A stretch of DNA of 64,000 nt, taken from the NCBI RefSeq assembly GCF_964213995.1, contig NC_135804.1, positions 67,580,001 through 67,644,000 of the forward strand, written 5' to 3'. How positions within the stretch are numbered: position 1 is the first letter of the stretch; each line of letters begins with the position of its first letter. This document shows positions 6,652-32,199 of the stretch, one piece after another. Position numbers and translations under genes: made by a program. Source of the DNA: Mustelus asterias (Eukaryota). The notes under the pieces were generated by a model. That model saw only the letters and a program-made list of their open reading frames with translations, had not been told where the DNA came from and did no database searches.

Positions 6652-6889
6652 AATGCCTGTATATCCTGTCTCTCACAATATTTTCTAACATTTAACCCAT
6701 TACAGATGTTAGGCTCACTGGACTGTAGTTCACAGGTTTTTCCATGCAGTCCTTCTTAAACAAAGGCACAACATTTGCCACCCTCCATTCTTCAGGCACC
6801 TCAGCTGTGACTGTCGATGATTCAAATATCTCTGTAAAAAGTTTAACAACACCAGGTTAAAGTCCAACAGGTTTATTTGGTAGCAAAAG

Positions 6890-20160: not shown

Positions 20161-20327
20161 TAAACTTCACTTATAGCGTGTCAAGCAGAACATGTCGCAA
20201 GACTGGTAATATGTGCATCCACTCCAGCAGGTCAACCATAATATGGGCATGAATTGCTCACTGGAGATTTGTGCGTTATGAGGAGGGTACATGAGAATGG
20301 GATTGTTGCTGCGCCTGCTGCACAGTC

Positions 20328-21556
20328 TGTTTTAACCGTTATACGAAGACAAAGAATTGTGAATAGACTTCTTGTTAGTACATTTTTTTTACATACAATT
20401 ATTAATCACCCACCCAATCAACAATAAGTTATCTTACAGAATACTAAAGTTCAAGTCCAATACTAGACCTTGACTTAACTTTTGTGTGACTGGCAAGTAC
20501 CCAGGCAGATATTGGCCTTTATCCAGGATGTTGCCTGGTATGGAAGGTCTTAGCTATGAGGAGAGATTGGGTAAACTGGGCTTGTTCTCCCTGTAAAGAC
20601 GGAGAATGAGGGGAGACCTAATAGAGGTGTACAAAATTATGAAGGGTATAGATAGGGTGAACAGTGGGAAGCTTTTTCCCAGGTCGGAGGTGACGATCAC
20701 GAGGGGTCACGGACTCAAGGTGAGAGGGGCGAGGTATAACTCAGACATCAGAGGGACGTTTTTTACACAGAGAGTGGTGGGGGACTGGAATGCGCTGACA
20801 AATAGGGTGGTGGAGGCAGGCACGCTGACATCGTTTAAGACTTACCTGGATAGTCACATGAGCAGTCTGGGAATGGAGGGATACAAACGAACGGTCTAGT
20901 TGGACCAATGAGCGGCATAGGCTTGGAGGGCCGAAGGGCCTGTTTCCGGTGCTGTACTGTTCTTTGTTCGTTCTACCCATGTGTTGGTCTCCGTGGTCCT
21001 CTGCATAGTCTGGTCCTTTGGTCTGGTCTGATGCTTTGGTCTTCCTTCCTTCCTTAGATGTAGTGGCTCTCCTTGTGCTGGTCGTTGCTGGTGATGGCCA
21101 CCATTATTGTCGTTCATTCGATGGGAGAGAGAGAGATTCTTCTGTTGTGCAGCACCCTTTGTACCTCGCTGGTTTTTGCACCCTTTTATGGTCATTGCCA
21201 ATCAATCGACCAAGACTTGATCACCCTGATCGATAAGGTCCAATCAGGTGCTGCCACACTGATCCCTGGGTGTGTACCCAACGGCCATGCCTGGAGGTGT
21301 TGGAGGTATGTAGATCACATACCTCCCTCCCAAATAAGGGGTTAAGGCTCCCCTTTGTCTGGTAAACAAGTATGTTTGACCAGAGAGTGTCTATTGTCTT
21401 TGGGATGGCCTATTTCCTGTGTATTCAGTTGTCTGAGCTACAGCCTGTTAATCTCTGTCCTTTTCTTTTGAGGCTGCAGCCTGCCTGTTTCAGTGCTTGT
21501 CCAATTGTCCCAGTGTGCTTTGTAAATCACCATTTTAAGTGGCTCATTTGGCCACA
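20328..21556 (-). repeat. LTR copy A (putative 3' LTR), interrupted by a CR1 3' fragment
   Basis: Direct repeat of 30902-31670. Minus strand runs TGTGGCC...TTAAAACA and is preceded by purine-rich AAGGGGAAC (polypurine-tract-like). Confidence 0.75.
20522..20975 (+). mobile_element. CR1 3' fragment inserted in LTR A
   Basis: ORF 20606-20899 (RGDLIEVYKIMKG...) is nearly identical to the C-terminus of the 56.5-59.3 kb copy; TTCT tail. Confidence 0.9.
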
Positions 21557-22452
21557 GTTCCCCTTGTTGATCCTGAATGTGAAGCGTGATGGATCACAGA
21601 CTCAGGACTAATATCTGTAGGATTTCCCCAGCCACTCAACAGTCAAGTAAGGCCCAGGCATTAGCATGCACAGTAACAAATCCCTACAACATATTTACAT
21701 TTCAGAAGCTACAGACAACAAACATTCTACTGTTAACCAGGAATTACAAACAACCACACATTCTGAAACCAAATCATTACAATAAGCCAGTTACAAACAA
21801 CCAAGCATTCAAAAAACATTACGATAAGTATTCGTGAGTCCAGGGTACATTCCGTTTTTTCTGAAGCTGCGCTATATTCAGATAATCCACTGGCAAAAGA
21901 TTTGACTCCCAAGTGGCAAAGCTCTGTTCAAAGGATCATGCCAGTTGATGAAAGTACAGCAAATGACATTTGATTTTTAAAAATCACTACAGTTTTCAAG
22001 AAATGAGTTTTAAAACAAAAGACCATCAGTTTGCTTTCAAAGAGTCTTGAAATAAGTTACGTGAAAAGGCTGCTGTGTAGGGAGATGTTTCATTATTTTT
22101 CAATGGCAAGGAAAATGACTCAAAAATAACTGGGTACCTTGCTGGCAATTTTCAACATGCGGTCTCAATCCCTCGACAGACGTTCCATGCCAATTTTTCA
22201 AATGAAGGCATTTAAATTAATTAAAAGCCACATGGCTTACTTTTTTTAATGTAAAGTTCAATCCTCATAACGAGTTAACCGAGTCAACAACTGGATAACA
22301 AGATTAATCATGGTGAAAATAGTTTTCTCGCATTTTATCGTAACAGGCAAATCAACTTTCATCAGATAATGCTTTCTGCGGTTCCAGGAGTCATTTTAGG
22401 AACAAGGTGGGAGGCTGACCTGACACTGGCAGAAATGCTTCTCTTGCTTTGA

Positions 22453-22632
22453 TCAATCATAGTCCCTGTATGAGCGGCCTCCGTAACAACCACCACCACC
22501 ACTGCAGTAGTATCCACCTTGGCCCTTGTACCCACCCGAATAGCTACCTTGGTCTCCTGTATCATACCGGCCTCTGCCACTATAGCCGCCGCTCCTGTCA
22601 CTATCCCAATAGCCACCTCCTGCTCCTCTCCT
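22453..22632 (-). pseudogene. Intronless C-terminal RGG/YGG fragment of a CIRBP/RBM3-like RNA-binding protein, followed by probable 3' UTR (to ~21570)
   Basis: Minus frame not in the ORF track: RRGAGGGYWDSDRSGGYSGRGRYDTGDQGSYSGGYKGQGGYYCSGGGGCYGGRSYRDYD*. The SYRDYD end resembles CIRBP/RBM3 C-termini. Confidence 0.6.
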
Positions 22633-22726
22633 GTGTGTGGAGATGCCGGTGTTGGACTGGGGTAAACACAGTCAGACGTTTAACAACACCAGGTTAAAGT
22701 CCAACAGGTTTATTTGGTAGCAAAAG

Positions 22727-22772
22727 CCACACAGGCTTTCGGAGCTCTAAGCCCCTTCTTCAGGTGAGTGGG
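22727..22772 (-). ncRNA. Hammerhead motif in array pLTR 1 (core U16.1->C, probably inactive)
   Basis: GAAAGCCTG instead of GAAAGCTTG. Confidence 0.55.
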
Positions 22773-22975
22773 AATCCTGTTCACAAACAGAGCATATAAA
22801 GACACAAACACAATTTACATGAATAATGGTTGGAATGCGAATACTTACAACTAATCAAGTCTTTAAGAAACAAAATAATGTGAGTGGAGAGAGCATCAAG
22901 ACAGGGTAAAAAGATGTGTATTGTCTCCAGAAAAGACAGCCAGTGAAACTCTGCAGGTCCAGTCAACTGTGGGAG

Positions 22976-25643
22976 TTACAAATAGTGTGACATGAACCCA
23001 ATATCCCGGTTGAGGCTGTCCTCGTGTGTGCGGAACTTGGCTATCAGTTTCTGCTCAGCGACTCTGCGTTGTCGTGTGTCGCGAAGGCCGCCTTGGAGAA
23101 CGCTTACCCAAATATCAGAGGCCGAATGCCCGTGACCACTGAAGTGCTCCCCAACAGGAAGAGAACAGTCTTGCCTGGTGATTGTCGAGCGGTGTTCATT
23201 CATCTGTTGTCGCAGCATCTGCATAGTTTCCCCAATGTACCATGCCTCGGGACATCCTTTCTTGCAGCGTATCAGGTAGACAACGTTGGCCAAATTGCAA
23301 GAGTATGTACCGTGTACCTGGTGGATGGTGTTCTCACGTGAGATGATGGCATCTGTGTCAATGATCCGGCACGTCTTGCAGAGGTTGCTGTGGCAGGGTT
23401 GTGTGGTGTCATGGTCACTGTTCTCCTGAAGGCTGGGTAGTTTGCTGCGGACAATGGTCTGTTTGAGGTTGTGCGGTTGTTTGAAGGCAAGAAGTGGGGG
23501 TGTGGGGATGGCCTTGGCGAGATGTTCGTCTTCATCAATGACATATTGAAGGCTCCGGAGGAGATGCCGTAGGTTCTCCGCTCCGGCGAAGTACTGGACA
23601 ACGAAGGGTACTCTGTCCACTGTGTTCCGTGTTTGTCTTCTGAGGAGGTCGGTGCAGTTTTTCGCTGTGGCGCGTTGGAACTGTTGATCAATGAGTCGAG
23701 CGCCATATCCTGTACTTATGAGGGCATCTTTCAGCGTCTGGAGGTGTTTCTTGCGATCCTCCTCATCCGAGCAGATCCTGTGTATACGGAGGGCTTGTCC
23801 GTAGGGGATGGCTTCTTTAACGTGTTTAGGGTGGAAGCTGGAGAAGTGGAGCATCGTGAGGTTATCTGTGGGCTTGCGGTACAGTGAGGTGCTGAGGTGA
23901 CCGTCCTTAATGGAGATGCGTGTGTCCAAGAATGCAACCGATTCCGGAGAGTAGTCTATGGTGAGTCTGATGGTGGGATGGAACTTGTTGATGTCATCAT
24001 AGAGTTGTTTCAGTGATTGTCCAAAGGAAGAAAATGTCATCGATGTATCTAGTGTATATCATCGGTTGAAGGTCCCGTGCGGTGAAGAAGTCTTGTTTGA
24101 ACCTGTGCATGAAGATGTTGGCATATTAAGGTGCGAATTTGTTCCCCATGGCTGTTCCGTGTGTCTGGATGAAGAACTGGTTGTTGAAGGTGAAGATATT
24201 GTGGTCCAGGATGAAGCGGAGGAGATGTAAAATTGCATCTGGAAACTGGCAGTTGTTGGCGCTGAGCACTGAGGCCGTTGCAGCAATGCCATCGTCATGG
24301 GGGATGCTGGTGTAGAGTGCCGAGACATCCATTGTGACGAGGAGAGCTCCTGGTTCAACTGCTCCATGTGTGCTGAGTTTCTGTAGGAAGTCCGTCGTGT
24401 CGCAACAAAAGCTGGGGGTTCTTTGTACAATGGGTTTCAGTATGCCCTCGACATAGCCGGAGAGGTTCTCGCACAGGGTCCCATTGCCCGATACGATGGG
24501 ACGGCCGGGTGTGTTTGCCTTGTGTATCTTCGGGAGGCAGTAGAGATCTCCAACGCGGGGAGTACGTGGGATGAGAGCATGGAGGGTGTTCTGAAAGTTC
24601 GGATCAAAGGTCATGATCAGAGTGTTGAGTTGACGGGTGTGTTCTTTGGTCGGATCTGCAGGTAACTGTCTGTAGTGTTCCTTGTTGTTGAGTTGTTGGT
24701 ACACTTCGTTGCAGTAATCCGTTCTGTTCAGTATGACGATGGCCCCTCCTTTGTCTGCTGGTTTGATGGCAATGTTGCGGTTGGTCTTGAGAGCGTGGAT
24801 GGCGTTACGTTGTGCTTGGGTGATGTTCGGGGCTGTCTTGTGAGTGCGGCTGATGAATTTGGTGTTGACGCACCTCCTGACGGCTTGGGCATACATGTCA
24901 AGTCGAGGGCAGCGGCCTTCCGGAGGAGTCCAATTCGACTCTTTCCTCTTCGGATGCACTGCGGATCTCTCTGTTGGCTATTCCGGTTCATTGGCTGTCT
25001 CATTGTGTTCGTTGTTGGCCTCTTGGGGTTTGTGGAAGAACTCCCTCAGCTTCATTCGCCTGATGAATTCCTCTGTGTCTGCTGCGAGACTGATGGGGTC
25101 TATTTTGGTGGTGGGGCAAAAATTAAGCCCTCGGCTGAGAACTTCGATTTCATCTGGTTGAAGTGTGTAGTCGGACAAGTTGACAATGGACTTCCCTGCA
25201 GTGGTACTGTTTTCTACTGTGGTACGGGGGGAGGCTTGGTTGCTGCTGGTGGAGATGCCGAGTTTCTCAAGTTTCCTGTTCTTGGCGTGCATGTAGATGG
25301 TGTAGCTCCTTTGTCTCGTCTGCTTGGCAGAGTTTCGCAGCTGGTCTGCATACTGAGCGCACGTTGAGAATGTGGACTCTATCTTGGTTTCCAGGCTGCG
25401 GCGTTTGCTGTAGAGTTGGTGTATGAGGTGGTTGAGGAGGGTGAGAGAGGTGCGACGGCAAAGTCTCTCAGCGTAGTCTGTGTTATAGGTTGACCTGAGT
25501 GGGTTCGTGATCCGTAGTCCTTTCGGTATCTTGTCTGCTTTCTTGCATCTTTGTAGAAACTTGATGTCTGTGTCGATATGCGCGATCTTCTTGGAGATCC
25601 TCTCCACTTGGAGCCGGCAGTTTGCGGTGTCGATGGTAGTCAT
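22976..25643 (-). pseudogene. PLE ORF, unit 1 (premature stops at 24978 and 24126, small deletion near 24020)
   Basis: ORFs 24978-25679, 24126-24959 and 22976-24040 together give the N-terminal domain, RT and GIY-YIG; ATG (MTTIDTANC) at 25643. Confidence 0.9.
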
Positions 25644-25736
25644 GAGGTGGAGATGCCGGTGTTGGACTGGGGTAAACACAGTAAGAAGTTTAACAACACC
25701 AGGTTAAAGTCCAACAGGTTTATTTGGTAGCAAAAG

Positions 25737-25782
25737 CCACACAAGCTTTCGGAGCTCTAAGCCCCTTCTTCAGGTGAGTGGG
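25737..25782 (-). ncRNA. Minimal hammerhead ribozyme in array pLTR 2
   Basis: CAC CTGAAGA A GGGGCT TAG AGCTCC GAAA GCTT GTG. Confidence 0.75.
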
Positions 25783-25985
25783 AATTCTGTTCACAAACAG
25801 AGCATATAAAGACACAAACTCAATTTACATGAATAATGGTTGGAATGCGAATACTTACAACTAATCAAGTCTTTAAGAAACAAAATAATGTGAGTGGAGA
25901 GAGCATCAAGACAGGGTAAAAAGATGTGTATTGTCTCCAGAAAAGACAGCCAGTGAAACTCTGCAGGTCCAGTCAACTGTGGGAG

Positions 25986-28658
25986 TTACAAACAGTGTGA
26001 CATGAACCCAATATCCCGGTTGAGGCCGTCCTCGTGTGTGCGGAACTTGGCTATAGGTTTCTGCTCAGCGACTCTGCGCCGTCGTGTGTCGCGAAGGCTG
26101 CCTTGGAGAACGCTTACCCGAATATCAGAGGCCGAATGCCCGTGACCGCTGAAGTGCTCCCCAACAGGAAGAGAACAGTCTTGCCTGGTGATTGTCGAGC
26201 GGTGTTCATTCATCCGTTGTCGCAGCGTCTGCATAGTTACCCCAATGTACCATGCCTCGGGACATCCTTTCTTGCAGCGTATCAGGTAGACAACGTTGGC
26301 CGAATTGCAAGAGTATGTACCGTGTACCTGGTGGATGGTGTTCTCACGTGAGATGATGGCATCCGTGTCGATGATCCGGCACGTCTTGCAGAGGTTGCTG
26401 TGGCAGGGTTGTGTGGTGTCATGGTCACTGTTCTCCTGAAGGCTGTGTAGTTTGCTGCGGACAATGGTCTGTTTGAGGTTGTGCGGTTGTTTGAAGGCAA
26501 GAAGTGGGGGTGTGGGGATGGCCTTGGCGAGATGTTCGTCTTCATCAATGACATATTGAAGGCTCCGGAGGAGATGCCATAGGTTCTCCGCTCCGGGGAA
26601 GTACTGGACAACGAAGGGTACTCTGTCCACTGTGTTCCGTGTTTGTCTTCTGAGGAGGTCGGTGCAGTTTTTCGCTGTGGCGCGTTGGAACTGTTGATCA
26701 ATGAGTCGAGCGCCATATCCTGTACTTATGAGGGCATCTTTCAGCGTCTGGAGGTGTTTCTTGCGATCCTCCTCATCCGAGCAGATCCTGTGTATACGGA
26801 GGGCTTGTCCGTAGGGGATGGCTTCTTTAACGTGTTTAGGGTGGAAGCTGGAGAAGTGGAGCATCGTGAGGTTATCCGTGGGCTTGCGGTACAGTGAGGT
26901 GCTGAGGTGACCGTCCTTAATGGAGATGCGTGTGTCCAAGAATGCAACCGATTCCGGAGAGTAGTCTATGGTGAGTCTGATGGTGGGATGGAACTTGTTG
27001 ATGTCATCATAGAGTTGTTTCAGTGATTGTTCACCATGAGTCCAAAACAAGAAAATGTCATCGATGTATCTAGTGTATAGCATCGGTTGAAGGTCCCGTG
27101 TGGTGAAGAAGTCTTGTTTGAACCTGTGCATGAAGATGTTGGCATATTGAGGTGCGAATTTGGTCCCCATGGCTGTTCCGTGTGTCTGGATGAAGAACTG
27201 GTTGTTGAAGGTGAAGATATTGTGGTCCAGGATGAAGCGGAGGAGATGTAAAATTGCATCTGGAAACTGGCAGTTGTTGGCGCTGAGCACTGAGGCCGTT
27301 GCAGCAATGCCATCGTCATGGGGGATGCTGGTGTAGAGTGCCGAGACATCCATTGTGACGAGGAGAGCTCCTGGTTCAACTGCTCCATGTGTGCTGAGTT
27401 TCTGTAGGAAGTCTGTCGTGTCGCAACAAAAGCTGGGGGTTCTTTGTACAATGAGTTTCAGTATGCCCTCGACATAGCCGGAGAGGTTCTCGCACAGGGT
27501 CCCATTGCCTGATACGATGGGACGGCCGGGTGTGTTTGCCTTGTGTATCTTCGGGAGGCAGTAGAGATCTCCAACGCGGGGAGTACGTGGGATGAGAGCA
27601 CGGAGGGTGTTCTGAAGGTCCGGATCAAAGGTCTTGATCAGAGTGTTGAGTTGACGGGTGTGTTCTTTGATCGAATCTGCAGGTAACTGTCTGTAGTGTT
27701 CCTCGTTGTTGAGTTGTCGGTACACTTCTTTGCAGTAATCCGTTCTGTTCAGTATGACGATGGCCCCTCCTTTGTCTGCTGGTTTGATGGCAATGTTGCG
27801 GTTGGTCTTGAGAGCGTGGATGGCGTTACGTTGTGCTTGGGTGATGTTCGGGGCTGTCTTGTGAGTGCGGCTGATGAATTTGGTGTTGACGCACCTCCTG
27901 ATGGCTTGGGCATAAATGTCAAGTCGAGGGCAGCGGCCTTCCGGAGGAGTCCAATTCGACTCTTTCCTCTTCGGATGCACTGCGGATCTCTCTGTTGGCT
28001 ATTCCGGTTCATTGGCTGTCTCATTGTGTTCGTTGTTGGCCTCTTGGGGTTTGTGGAAGAACTCCCTCAGCTTCATTCGCCTGATGAATTCCTCTGTGTC
28101 TGCTGCGAGACTGATGGGGTCTATTTTGGTGGTGGGGCAAAAATTAAGCCCTTGGCTGAGAACTTCGATTTCATCTGGTTGAAGTGTGTAGTCGGACAAG
28201 TTGACAATGGACTTCCCTGCAGTGGTACTGTTTTCTATTGTGGTACGGGGGGAGGCTTGGTTGCTGCTGGTGGAGATGCCGAGTTTCTCAAGTTTCCTGT
28301 TCTTGGTGTGCATGTAGATGGTGTAGCTCCTTTGTCTCGTCTGCTTGGCAGAGTTTCGCAGCTGGTCTGCAGCCTGAGCGCAAGTTGAGAATATGGACTC
28401 TATCTTGGTTTCCAGGCTGCGGCGTTTGCTGTAGAGTTGGTGTATGAGGTGGTTGAGGAGGGTGAGAGACGTGCAAAGTCTCTCAGCGTAGTCTGTGTTA
28501 TAGGTTGACCTGAGTGGGTTTGTGATCCGTAGTCCTTTCGGTATCTTGTCTGCTTTCTTGCATCTTTGTAGAAAGTTGATGTCTGTGTCGATATCCGCGA
28601 TCTTCTTGGAGATCCTCTCCACTTGGAGCCGGCAGTTTGCGGTGTCGATGGTAGTCAT
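25986..28658 (-). pseudogene. PLE ORF, unit 2 (full length apart from one in-frame TAG at 27999-28001)
   Basis: ORFs 27999-28694 and 25986-27980 are in the same frame, separated by the TAG and 6 codons; RT YIDD and GIY-YIG are intact. Confidence 0.9.
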
Positions 28659-28751
28659 GATGTGGAGATGCCGGTGTTGGACTGGGGTAAACACAGTAAG
28701 AAGTTTAACAACACCAGGTTAAAGTCCAACAGGTTTATTTGGTAGCAAAAG

Positions 28752-28797
28752 CCACACAAGCTTTCGGAGCTCTAAGCCCCTTCTTCAGGTGAGTGGG
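28752..28797 (-). ncRNA. Minimal hammerhead ribozyme in array pLTR 3
   Basis: Identical to 25737-25782. Confidence 0.75.
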
Positions 28798-29071
28798 AAT
28801 TCTGTTCACAAACAGAGCATATAAAGACACAAACTCAATTTACATGAATAATGGTTGGAATGCGAATACTTACAACTAATCAAATCTTTAAGAAACAAAA
28901 TAATGTGAGTGGAGAGAGCATCAAGACAGGGTAAAAAGATGTGTATTGTCTCCAGAAAAGACAGCCAGTGAAACTCTGTAGGTCCAGTCAACTGTGGGGG
29001 TTACAAATAGTGTGACATGAACCCAATATCCCGGTTGAGGCCGTCCTCGTGTGTGCGGAACTTGTCGAGCG

Positions 29072-29625
29072 GTCGACAATCACCAGGCAAGACTGTTCTC
29101 TTCCTGTTGGGGAGCACTTCAGCGGTCACGGGCATTCGCCCTCTGATATTCGGGTAAGCATTCTCCAAGGCGGCCTTCACGACACACGACGGCACAGAGT
29201 CGCTGAGCAGAAACTGATAGCCAAGTTCCGCACACATGAGGACGGCCTCAACCGGGATATTGGGTTCATGTCACACGATCTGTAATCCCCATAGCTTGCC
29301 TGGACTTGCAGAGTCTCACTGGTTGTCCTGTCTGGAGACAATACACATCTCTTTCACCTGTCTTAATGCTCTCTCCACTCACATTGTCTGTACCTTTAAG
29401 ACTTGATTAGCTGTCAGTATTCGCATTCCAACCATTATTCTGTAAATTGAGTTTGTGTCTTTATATGCCCTGTTTGTGAACAGAATTCCTACTCACCTGA
29501 AGAAGGAGCTTAAGGCTCCGAAAGCTTGTGGGTTTTGCTACCAAATAAACATGTTGGACTTTAACCTGGTTTTGTTAAACTTCTTACTGTGTTTACCCCA
29601 GTCCAACGCCGGCATCTCCACATCA
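29072..29625 (+). mobile_element. PLE 3' fragment (GIY-YIG end plus pLTR) of a related subfamily, inverted relative to the array
   Basis: ORF 29049-29285; its pLTR differs from the array pLTR; hammerhead at 29488-29532 (helix II GGAGCT TAA GGCTCC); ends CATCTCCACATCA. Confidence 0.9.
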
Positions 29626-29639
29626 TTACATTTATTTAA

Positions 29640-30801
29640 CCCATCCTCTTAATTAAACCCTACTGCAATCAATATCACTTCTCTGATCTCTGACATTTTG
29701 AGGGCCTGGCAGGGCAGAGCGTACAGAATTGCTTAAGCACATGACTATCAGCTTTACTTCTTCCCTTTCATCTAACCTGTGTATTATCTTTTGCTGTCTA
29801 ACCTCCTCAAAGAAACTGTGTGGGTCAGCCGGTGGCTCAAAAGTTGGGATTTTATTTGCAATTTCGGCCAATTGTGCCACCGTAAACGGGGTCGTGTATG
29901 TAACAGCTGGGCCCTGAGCCTCTCTTACCCGTCACTGGGTGCATTGGTACCGGAAGTGAATCTGGGGGCACGGTGGGTATGACTTCCCCTGGGAAAGATG
30001 GTGGTAGACCCCAATCCTCGGTTCGCGTAACGTACAGCTTAGCATTTTTTTTTAACTCTCCCCAATCTGCATTCTCTCTCTCCTCTTCCTCTACTGTCCT
30101 GAAGGTACACAAATCCATTTTGAACTGATAATCGGGATTTCAGCCGTGAAATTTCTTGCTGGCATTTGGAGTGGTCAGTGGTTGCCTGTCTCTGTTCTTT
30201 ACTTGGCTTGATGTAACGCTTTTATTGCCACCTGCAGATCAGTGCACTTAGCTTCCAATCGTGCTACTGCCTGCTCGACTTCACCTTCGGCCAAGACAGC
30301 GTGCTGGGCATCTTGGTAGGCTCTCTCATACTGGGTCTGAAAATTGCCCAGATGTAATAAATTTGCCTGGTTTGTTCTTCTTAATTCGTTTACCTCTGTC
30401 TTTTTCTGCTTTTATTTGTTCTATCCTCTCCTGCTGCTGTTCCTTTAGTTTCTTAATCTCCGCATACTTTTCCTCTCTTAATTTCCTGAATCCCTCTTTC
30501 TCCTCTTGTACCTGCTTCGATTCCTCCAGTTCCTTATGAACTGTGTTTAGTTCCTTTTCTGTTCCCAGCAGCTGTCCTAAGCAGCTCACCATGGCAGTCG
30601 CTTTCTCACATTTGCCCATTTTCCCTGAACTTTCCTCAGTTCGTCCCAATACTTCTGCCCTAGGGATCCTGGTCCCGTCTCAGTATTGGCACAAACTTCT
30701 GCCCATAGGGGCCACCCTTTCTTCTTAATATATTGCCTGATTTTTGTTTCCCACAGGGGACACTTCTCTGTCTCTGTGCTGTTTCCTGTATTCAATGACA
30801 A
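29640..30801 (-). pseudogene. Frameshifted retrovirus-like gag remnant (MA-like N-terminus, coiled coil, capsid N-terminal region)
   Basis: Lies directly downstream of LTR B. Fragments CPLWETKIRQYIKKKGWPLW, an E/K/Q-rich coiled coil, and PMHPVT..VTYTTPFTVAQLAEIA..FFEEV, which resembles the retroviral CA YxPF..L motif. Confidence 0.55.
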
Positions 30802-30901
30802 GGGATAGGGAGTTGATTGGGCTGCGGGTAAGGCTTTGGGCTATGTTCCGGTCCTAATCCCTCCAGATCCCAATGTAAATCTACAGAGTTTATCCTAAGT
30901 C

Positions 30902-31670
30902 TGTTTTAACCCTTAAACGGAGGACAAAGACTTGTGAATAGACTTCTTGTTCGGACAATAATATTTATTTACACAATTATTAATCACCCACCCAATCAAC
31001 AATAAGTTATCTTACAGAATACTAAAGTTCGAGTCCAATATTAGACCTTGACTGAACATTTGCGTGACTGGCAAGTACCCAGGCAATATTGGCCTTTATC
31101 CGCCTGTTGGTCTCCGTAGTCTGTGTGGTCTGGTCTTTTGGTCTGGTCTGATACTGTGGCTCAGGTCTTCCTTCCTTCCTTGGGTGTGGTGGTTCTCCTC
31201 GTGCTGATGATGGTCACCGTTGTTGTCGTTCGTTGGTGGAGAGAGAGAGAGATTCTTCTGTTGCACAGCACCTTTATACCTCATTGGTTTTCGTGCCCTT
31301 TTTGGCCATTGCCAAACAATCGATCAGGGCTTGATCACCCTGATCGATAAGGTCCAATCAGGTGCTGCCACACCGATCTTTGGGTGTGTACCCAACGGCC
31401 ATGCCTGTAGGTGCTGGAAGCATGTAGGTCACAGACCTCCCTCCGAAATAAGAGGTTAAGACTCCCCTTTGTCTGGTAAACAAGTATGTTTGTCCAGGGA
31501 GTGTCTATTGTCTTTGGGATGGCCTATTTTCTGTCTATTCAGTCGTCTAAGCTGCAGCCTTTTTATCTCTGTCCTTTTCTTTTGAGACTGCAGCCTGCCT
31601 GTTTCCGTGCTTGTCCAATTATCCCTGGGTGCTCTGTAAATCACCATTTTAGGTGGCCCATTTGGCCACA
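30902..31670 (-). repeat. LTR copy B (putative 5' LTR)
   Basis: TG...CA ends on the minus strand, TATA box GGTATAAAGG (~31270-31280), AATAAA (~30964-30969); direct repeat of 20328-21556. Confidence 0.8.
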
Positions 31671-32199
31671 GGATGCACTAATGGTGCTTAATGTCCTGCA
31701 TAAATAAAGACAGAACCTCGCTAAATCTTTATGTTTATTTCTGCCCAGCAGCTGACCCAGTTGACAGGGTGGTCAGGTGGAATAGCAATGGTAGGAGCCC
31801 ACAACTCAGACCCTCGACAGTCAAGCATAAATTTGGATGCTGGAACTTCAGAGGGTGGGAGGGTGGCCATTGTGGTCAGGTAATTTGGATTTGTCTGGGA
31901 AAGTACTGAAGTGCTTGGGAGTAGGATGGTGGAAAAGAGGCTCCAGGTTTCCTCCCGGGCTTATGGGAACACTCCTGGTCCACATGGAGTGTTGGAAAAA
32001 AAAAACATGTATCTTTTAGAGTCAGTGATTATTGTCTTTCAGGGCATCATAACATGGCCTAATTTCATATTTAGATTATGGTGAGAAGTATGGGTCTCAG
32101 ACTGGTGTCTTATGTTTAAATGCGATTGCAAGAGAATGAGGACTGATTTGGCTAAAGTGCATTGGGAAATAGGTTTAAAAAGTTGAAAGGTATTCCACC

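What the first reader, a model, noticed from the sequence alone, without database searches (positions are those of the whole stretch)
20328..31670. Retrovirus-like LTR pair bracketing gag, a PLE array and a cellular mRNA fragment: possible gene transduction
Seen on the minus strand: LTR B (TATA, AATAAA, TG..CA), gag remnant, PLE complex, CIRBP/RBM3-like coding end plus ~0.9 kb UTR-like sequence, polypurine tract, LTR A. No pol/env is recognisable, and no poly(A) lies between the host fragment and the purine tract. Established: retroviruses capture cellular mRNAs by template switching and lose internal genes. Inference: a defective endogenous retrovirus carrying a cold-inducible RNA-binding-protein fragment. 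Caveats: the LTRs differ by several indels, no clean TSD was found at the TG/CA ends, and no canonical TGG primer-binding site follows LTR B.
Basis: partly seen in the sequence, partly recalled or inferred. Interest (0 to 1): 0.7.

Follow-up and report, generated by a model that had tools for sequence, protein, structure and literature searches.

The report
Shark retrovirus captured cold-shock mRNA
This is one broken copy of a roughly 50-copy dead retrovirus family in a shark-like genome in which a whole host mRNA for a cold-inducible RNA-binding protein stands in place of the viral enzyme gene, likely captured once by template switching and then likely spread with help from intact relatives, a known kind of gene capture whose two parents are both still in the genome.

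Summary
Confirmed and extended. The window holds one damaged copy of a family (48 loci) built LTR–tRNA-Arg primer site–gag–complete CIRBP-like mRNA–env remnant–purine tract–LTR. Both parents are in the genome: an intronless CIRBP-like gene on C5 (copies 88–93% identical) and a pol/env-bearing retrovirus family with the same LTR and gag. The mRNA replaces pol. Its 5' junction sits in a short microhomology and puts the CIRBP start in frame with the Gag zinc knuckle (22 of 29 copies). Its 3' junction joins the host poly(A) site to an A-run just before viral env. Shared junctions and a shared UTR deletion indicate one capture. Mixed gag ancestry and several tRNA-Arg primer sites indicate many later rounds with helper recombination. 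Three first-reader caveats change: the window copy has a 4-bp target duplication (ATCC), a poly(A) remnant, and lost its primer site by deletion. The Penelope array came later, where gag's end and the RRM are missing. Selection for the fusion is not shown. The helper is a true retrovirus, probably snakehead-like, not a lokiretrovirus. Gene capture by ERVs is known (crocodilians); no CIRBP or shark case turned up in nine literature searches or in the scan's notes.

The parts
31671..31674 (-). Target-site duplication, 5' copy (ATCC)
30898..31670 (-). 5' LTR (LTR B), starts TG; last ~17 nt, primer-binding site and ~180 nt of leader deleted
30757..30897 (-). Remaining part of the 5' leader
29627..30753 (-). 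gag remnant (coiled coil and part of capsid), decayed; 3' third with zinc knuckle missing
29070..29626 (+). Penelope-like element, inverted terminal segment; begins at a gag site hit by this element in other copies too
22637..29064 (-). Penelope-like tandem array (0.4 kb 3' piece plus two ~3.0 kb units, 55 differences in 3000 nt); later insertion; gag 3' end, gag-CIRBP junction and RRM are missing at this place
22453..22636 (-). C-terminal RGG part and stop codon of the captured CIRBP-like coding sequence
21861..22452 (-). Captured host 3' UTR, with the family's 373-nt deletion (near 22295) and mutated poly(A) signal AATATA at 21878-21873
21855..21860 (-). A-run: junction of host poly(A) tail with viral A-run; ~350 nt of env remnant that follow in other copies are deleted here
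21566..21854 (-). Viral 3' region (env end and 3' untranslated)
21557..21565 (-). Polypurine tract
20304..21556 (-). 3' LTR (LTR A), TG...CA, interrupted by a CR1 fragment
20524..20983 (+). CR1 LINE 3' fragment inserted in LTR A
20300..20303 (-). Target-site duplication, 3' copy (ATCC)

Best explanation
The element is a decayed copy of a ~50-copy defective endogenous retrovirus family whose pol gene is replaced by a complete host CIRBP-like mRNA, likely captured once by two reverse-transcriptase template switches and then likely copied many times by pol-bearing relatives as a largely passive passenger. Inferred steps: the abundant mRNA of the intronless C5 gene was co-packaged with viral RNA; during minus-strand synthesis RT left the viral A-run just upstream of env for the mRNA's poly(A) tail, copied the mRNA to about 45 nt upstream of its start codon, and returned to gag at a short microhomology behind the zinc knuckle, giving gag-CIRBP-env. 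The lineage then lost 373 nt of UTR at a direct repeat, mostly lost the internal poly(A) signal and most of env, and kept exchanging LTR and gag sequence with helpers. After integration the window copy lost its primer site, and a Penelope insertion took the place of gag's end and the RRM. Shown: both parents, both junctions, family structure, frame, target duplications, primer sites. Inferred: co-packaging, order of events, helper dependence, passivity.
For: 48 loci carry CIRBP-derived sequence in viral context; 0 of 48 have RT within the 10 kb held, against 34 of 40 loci picked by gag (28 of 40 with env, 1 of 40 with CIRBP). The host gene L074 has no LTR or gag and matches from 5' UTR to poly(A) site. 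Same 5' junction in 40 of 48, same UTR deletion in 43 of 48, same 3' junction in 34 of 48; 26 sites where at least 90% of copies differ from both host paralogues. Helper copies have an A-run directly before the env start, where the host mRNA ends. 4-bp duplication perfect in 12 and 3/4 in 4 of 23 pairs. Primer sites match tRNA-Arg genes with CCT, TCT and CCG anticodons. Gag of CIRBP copies is interleaved with helper gag (16 label changes against 24.5 shuffled; a single clade would need 1). Two copies keep a full-length env stretch and one pol-bearing copy has the same env deletion. Junction patterns: 28 CIRBP-type against 114 helper-type hits, 0 in reversed controls.
Against: The window's LTR pair is among the most diverged (0.108-0.117 against a median of 0.071, range 0.049-0.120, for 23 other CIRBP copies; between copies median 0.12) and its sister grouping has support of only 0.38, so one LTR may have been exchanged. 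The window copy lacks the 5' junction and primer site, so its assignment rests on the parts that remain. The gag tree is star-like and weakly resolved. The parent has no intron within the captured span, so splicing cannot prove an RNA template; the A-run could be wholly viral, although homology stops exactly at the poly(A) site. Passivity is not proven: shared RRM changes lean synonymous (dN/dS 0.58, p=0.34).
Confidence: 0.85

Rival explanations
1. Same capture, but the Gag-CIRBP fusion was useful: an RRM-RGG domain added behind the nucleocapsid would bind or chaperone viral RNA and favoured the spread of the defective genome.
For: In frame in 22 of 29 copies, with no stop between zinc knuckle and start codon in 17 of those 22. 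Shared indels in the coding part are 8 in frame to 1 frameshift, against 4 to 17 in the UTR. Shared RRM variants dN/dS 0.47-0.58 against 1.0-1.2 for singletons. The family reached about a quarter of the helper-type count.
Against: One founder explains the frame (roughly 1 in 6 by chance, my estimate). RRM test not significant (p=0.06 and 0.34). Gag variants shared only among CIRBP copies show dN/dS 1.27 (32 N: 9 S). In-frame indels lie in triplet repeats and include host-lineage changes. An RNP1 glycine is replaced in 39 of 40 copies. Only 6 of 41 coding sequences are open to the natural end.
Confidence: 0.1
2. A LINE-made processed pseudogene of CIRBP inserted into an existing provirus, which then amplified.
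For: An A-run ends the insert; CR1 and Penelope elements are active in this genome.
Against: The insert replaces about 5.3 kb (gag end and all of pol) instead of interrupting a continuous sequence, has no duplication of its own, and both ends lie in homology with the virus.
Confidence: 0.03
3. In this window LTR B-gag and CIRBP-LTR A come from two different proviruses joined by recombination between Penelope copies or LTRs.
For: High LTR divergence; the junction region is replaced by Penelope sequence at a site that is hit in several copies.
Against: Matching ATCC on both sides (1 in 256 by chance), collinear order, and LTR B's nearest LTR among 109 is LTR A.
Confidence: 0.05

Closest known systems
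Crocodilian ERV gene captures: KIT-ligand in CrocERV29, nectin3 in CrocERV31 (PMC4299795; passages and section 15 read)
   Same: Host mRNA inside a non-mammalian ERV lineage, spread to several insertions.
   Different: There the gene lies between pol and env or replaces env, and purifying selection was reported; here it replaces pol, is fused in frame to gag, reaches 48 loci, and selection is not shown.
LTR-mediated retroposition by microsimilarity template switching, incl. HERV-K/FAM8A1 (PMC5131818; passages read)
   Same: Part of the internal ORFs replaced by mRNA, short homology at both fusion points, further rounds as a non-autonomous element.
   Different: Here the captured piece is near full length, runs to the poly(A) site and uses a viral A-run as the 3' homology; the LTR examples in the passages read were often 3'-truncated without poly(A).
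Acutely transforming retroviruses with gag-onc fusions (recalled textbook knowledge; mentioned in PMC11905727 and PMC4299795 passages)
   Same: gag fused in frame to a host gene, pol lost, env kept or lost, helper needed.
   Different: Germ-line family, tens of millions of years old by LTR divergence; cargo is an RNA-binding protein; no evidence of a growth effect.
Snakehead-retrovirus-like ERVs (clade Huo; CmiERV lineage I) (PMC4422223 part 1 of 2; PMC6001957 and PMC4977317 passages)
   Same: Probable class of the helper: true retroviral RT, nearest pol proteins in frogs and coelacanth (48-52%), highest RT-core identity in BFVD 48% to Q88285, which I recall as snakehead retrovirus Gag-Pol.
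   Different: No named snakehead sequence could be put in my tree; the name of Q88285 comes from no call.
Lokiretroviruses and their gag-only BHIKHARI derivatives (PMC7947760 parts 1-2 of 4 and supplement passages; bioRxiv 10.1101/2024.03.25.586437 passages)
   Same: Coiled-coil Gag, dual RNase H, RXKR-type Env cleavage site, non-autonomous derivatives.
   Different: RT motifs and tree place the helper outside this group.

Membership tests
ERV with captured host mRNA (transducing, non-autonomous) | Paired LTRs with TG...CA ends and a target-site duplication | tested here: met
   Window ATCC/ATCC; 12 perfect and 4 near-perfect of 23 pairs
ERV with captured host mRNA (transducing, non-autonomous) | tRNA primer-binding site and polypurine tract | tested here: met
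   Family: tRNA-Arg sites; window copy has the purine tract but its primer site is deleted
ERV with captured host mRNA (transducing, non-autonomous) | Insert derives from an identifiable cellular gene outside any ERV | tested here: met
   L074/L075 on C5, no LTR or gag in 10 kb; copies 88-93% identical
ERV with captured host mRNA (transducing, non-autonomous) | Insert replaces viral coding sequence, with homology at the junctions | tested here: met
   pol absent in 48 of 48; junctions
ERV with captured host mRNA (transducing, non-autonomous) | Loss of introns relative to the parent | tested here: inconclusive
   Parent has no intron in the span; the 373-nt gap lies at a direct repeat, is not GT-AG, and is covered in public contigs
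ERV with captured host mRNA (transducing, non-autonomous) | Captured gene expressed or under selection in the virus | tested here: inconclusive
   dN/dS tests not significant; no listed contig bridges the gag-CIRBP junction, only part of the pieces shown
Retroviridae (helper) | gag-pol-env order; PR-RT-tether-RNase H-IN; RT inside the retroviral clade | tested here: met
   Pfam; best PDB hits gamma and foamy RTs; 26-row clade, SH-aLRT 99, quick tree; env-like ORF with signal-like stretch, RSKR site, coiled coil and transmembrane stretch read by eye
Lokiretrovirus (helper) | RT in the Loki clade (PFGYxNSPAEF, IYVDDIL) | tested here: not met
   Helper has PQGFHNSP and QYVD; Loki-like P0024/P0026 fall outside its clade
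Lokiretrovirus (helper) | Env similar to paramyxovirus fusion protein (PF00523) | tested here: inconclusive
   No Pfam hit in 6 env pieces at E up to 10; model pLDDT 40, fold search uninformative
Snakehead-retrovirus-like (clade Huo) (helper) | RT groups with snakehead retrovirus | tested here: inconclusive
   48% over 172 columns to Q88285_1, the highest identity among 50 rows shown, but unnamed by the tool; no named reference in the tree
CIRBP/RBM3 family (cargo) | One N-terminal RRM followed by an RGG-rich tail | tested here: met
   RRM_1 E=1e-26 on L074, residues 7-77; 79% nucleotide identity to first exons of intron-containing genes on C26. The name CIRBP/RBM3 is recalled from the sequence, not given by a call

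The most novel reading that the evidence does not exclude
A shark retrovirus turned a host cold-shock RNA-binding domain into part of its Gag protein: the in-frame Gag-RRM-RGG fusion gave the defective genome a packaging or RNA-chaperone advantage, which is why this one capture spread to about 50 germ-line sites over tens of millions of years.
Probability: 0.1. Interest if true: 0.8.

Novelty: new member of a known kind. Interest (0 to 1): 0.52.

Why it matters
Gene capture by retroviruses is central to oncogene history, but germ-line cases with both parents and both junctions preserved are few. Here the 3' switch can be read directly (host poly(A) site joined to a viral A-run), and 48 copies record what followed: loss of the internal poly(A) signal in most copies, env loss, primer switching among tRNA-Arg types and recombination with helpers. 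It is a natural test set for whether captured cargo is passenger or selected. It also warns annotators that most CIRBP-like hits in this genome are proviral.

Tried and rejected
Intron-containing CIRBP-like genes on C26 as parent: rejected, only the first exon matches (79%) and no UTR. The 373-nt UTR gap as an intron: rejected. Lokiretrovirus as helper: considered from env layout and NYNRIN-like names, rejected on RT. Env structure from a single sequence: pLDDT 40, fold search meaningless. Longer gag homologues: none. Viral-contig scan with RT: none. First tRNA pattern wrongly included CCA and found nothing; of 6 loci then scanned, 3 were called tRNA-Arg, 1 tRNA-Pyl and 2 nothing. Expression: no RNA holder listed on record; raw RNA runs X22, X23, X24 laid 0 reads, so no test. 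Peptide search of the Loki supplement with six helper motifs: 0 hits. Atlas with a stored gag homologue gave only generic retrotransposon gag leads. The careful RT tree did not finish; the quick tree is used. Scan notes: nothing on this family. The supplement of PMC7947760 was cut when stored, so its alignments could not be seen in full.
Full report
Observation. The two LTRs align at 90.0% over 762 nt, with a CR1 fragment in LTR A. Comparison with sister copies moves the end of LTR A to 20304, and the element is then bounded by ATCC on both sides. LTR B has lost its last 17 or so bases together with the primer site and about 180 nt of leader. The Penelope complex is an inverted terminal piece, a 0.4-kb piece and two units that differ at 55 of 3000 positions, so it is much younger than the provirus. 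The genome is shark-like: the named gag homologues are from Scyliorhinus and Heterodontus.

A family. A search with 21480-22640 scored 40 of 753 candidates, all in viral context. With further loci from a protein search and one from the gag search, I hold 48 loci. The usual layout is LTR (about 810 nt), primer site, leader, gag, a complete RRM-RGG coding sequence, 3' UTR, about 600 nt of viral sequence, purine tract, LTR; about 5.3 kb. A 25-nt junction pattern found 28 places genome-wide, all already in my set, so the family is close to 50 loci. A few are probably segmental duplicates.

The host parent. Intron-containing CIRBP-like genes on C26 match only in the first exon. The source is L074 or its near twin L075 on C5: intact, intronless in the coding part, no LTR or gag nearby, matching from about 45 nt before the start codon to the poly(A) site. 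Copies are 88-93% identical to it; 26 sites separate at least 90% of copies from both paralogues. Public contigs of guessed or unrecorded type are deep across L074 5209-6604 and near zero beyond 6723, and one ends at 6695; this fits an abundant transcript ending there, but contigs cannot prove ends or RNA origin.

The viral parent. A gag search gave 12,220 first-look candidates, 77 scored. Of 40 new loci fetched, 34 have RT and 28 env within 10 kb, and 1 has CIRBP. Pol reads PR, RT, tether, RNase H, integrase, in frame with gag behind TGA-CGG in the copies where this could be read. The helper-type junction pattern has 114 hits. RT falls inside a retroviral clade with frog and coelacanth proteins. 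Lokiretrovirus was considered and rejected: the Loki RT motifs in the supplement of PMC7947760 match P0024, which lies outside that clade, and not the helper. The highest identity in the viral fold search is 48% to Q88285, which I recall as snakehead retrovirus; such ERVs are reported in elephant shark (PMC4422223). Class: probably snakehead-like, not settled.

Junctions. At the 5' side virus and host share CA(G/A)CTCCT in register; the element follows gag up to that point and the host 5' UTR from two bases later. This junction is found in 40 of 48 loci. It places the CIRBP start in frame with the zinc knuckle in 22 of 29 copies scored. At the 3' side host homology ends just after AATAAA and passes into an A-run that helpers carry directly before the env start; 34 of 48 loci show this join, and the window keeps the A-run but has a further deletion behind it. 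The host signal is intact in 3 of 36 copies scored and reads AATATA in 25; loss of a signal that would end the genomic RNA early is a plausible advantage but may be a founder effect. A 373-nt UTR deletion at a short direct repeat is shared by 43 of 48. Two copies keep the whole env stretch, one a part, most share an internal env deletion also seen in one pol-bearing copy.

Spread. Duplications are 4 bp (12 perfect, 4 with one mismatch, 7 worse, of 23). Primer sites vary among 3' ends of tRNA-Arg genes, as expected from repeated reverse transcription. LTR pairs differ by 0.049-0.120 (median 0.071, n=23), helpers by 0.041-0.113 (n=7), so both were active over the same long period: about 35-85 million years at a recalled shark rate of 7e-10 per site per year, about three times older at the rate assumed in PMC4422223. 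Gag of CIRBP copies is mixed with helper gag, and the synonymous excess in shared gag variants disappears when variants also seen in helpers are removed (0.58 to 1.27). That fits repeated recombination with helpers and no constraint on the family's own gag.

Function. The RRM shows a non-significant synonymous excess among shared variants; an RNP1 glycine is changed in 39 of 40 copies; 6 of 41 coding sequences are open to their natural end. No expression of the fusion was shown. I therefore read the cargo as a passenger (0.85), with a selected fusion as the live alternative (0.1).

Against my reading. The window's LTR pair is at the old end of the range and only weakly supported as sisters; the diagnostic 5' junction is missing in this copy; intron loss cannot be used; the trees are quick ones.

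Known kinds. ERV gene capture is described for crocodilians (PMC4299795) and LTR-mediated retroposition for several animals (PMC5131818). Nine paper searches showed no CIRBP or shark case, but the library lacks most subscription journals. Papers were seen as passages or named parts only, as stated under Closest known systems; PMC8922424 and PMC8278194 as passages. The scan's notes hold nothing on this family. Verdict: a real and well-preserved new member of a known kind; interest 0.52.

Noticed in passing
G000:C5:11.34-11.51 Mb (L074-L077): Cluster of four CIRBP-like genes with intronless coding sequence and intact frames, separate from an intron-containing pair on C26 (23.57 and 23.59 Mb). 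Possibly older retrogenes that became functional; public contigs are deep over L074.
   Followed up: partly
window 29627 and many loci (L039, L053, L083, L086; L044, L049, L056, L058, L059, L063, L081): The Penelope-like element hits the same few sites of this ERV again and again (one gag site, one LTR site, in only one LTR of a copy), pointing to target-sequence preference.
   Followed up: partly
helper loci L087-L126: Large retrovirus family (114 junction hits), gag and pol in one frame separated by TGA-CGG, primer sites from several tRNA-Arg types, env without a Pfam match.
   Followed up: partly
window 25986-28718 and 22976-25703: Both Penelope units share the same in-frame TAG between their two long ORFs.
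   Followed up: no
L055/L078, L052/L079, L101/L109, L122/L123: Pairs of unusually similar loci, likely segmental duplicates, so independent insertions are slightly fewer than loci.
   Followed up: partly
G000:C9:124047212-124047436 (L085): A separate decayed processed copy resembling the C26-type gene, without LTRs.
   Followed up: no
run X1 laid on L074: One shallow contig skips the same UTR stretch as the element, suggesting the family also exists in that other organism.
   Followed up: no
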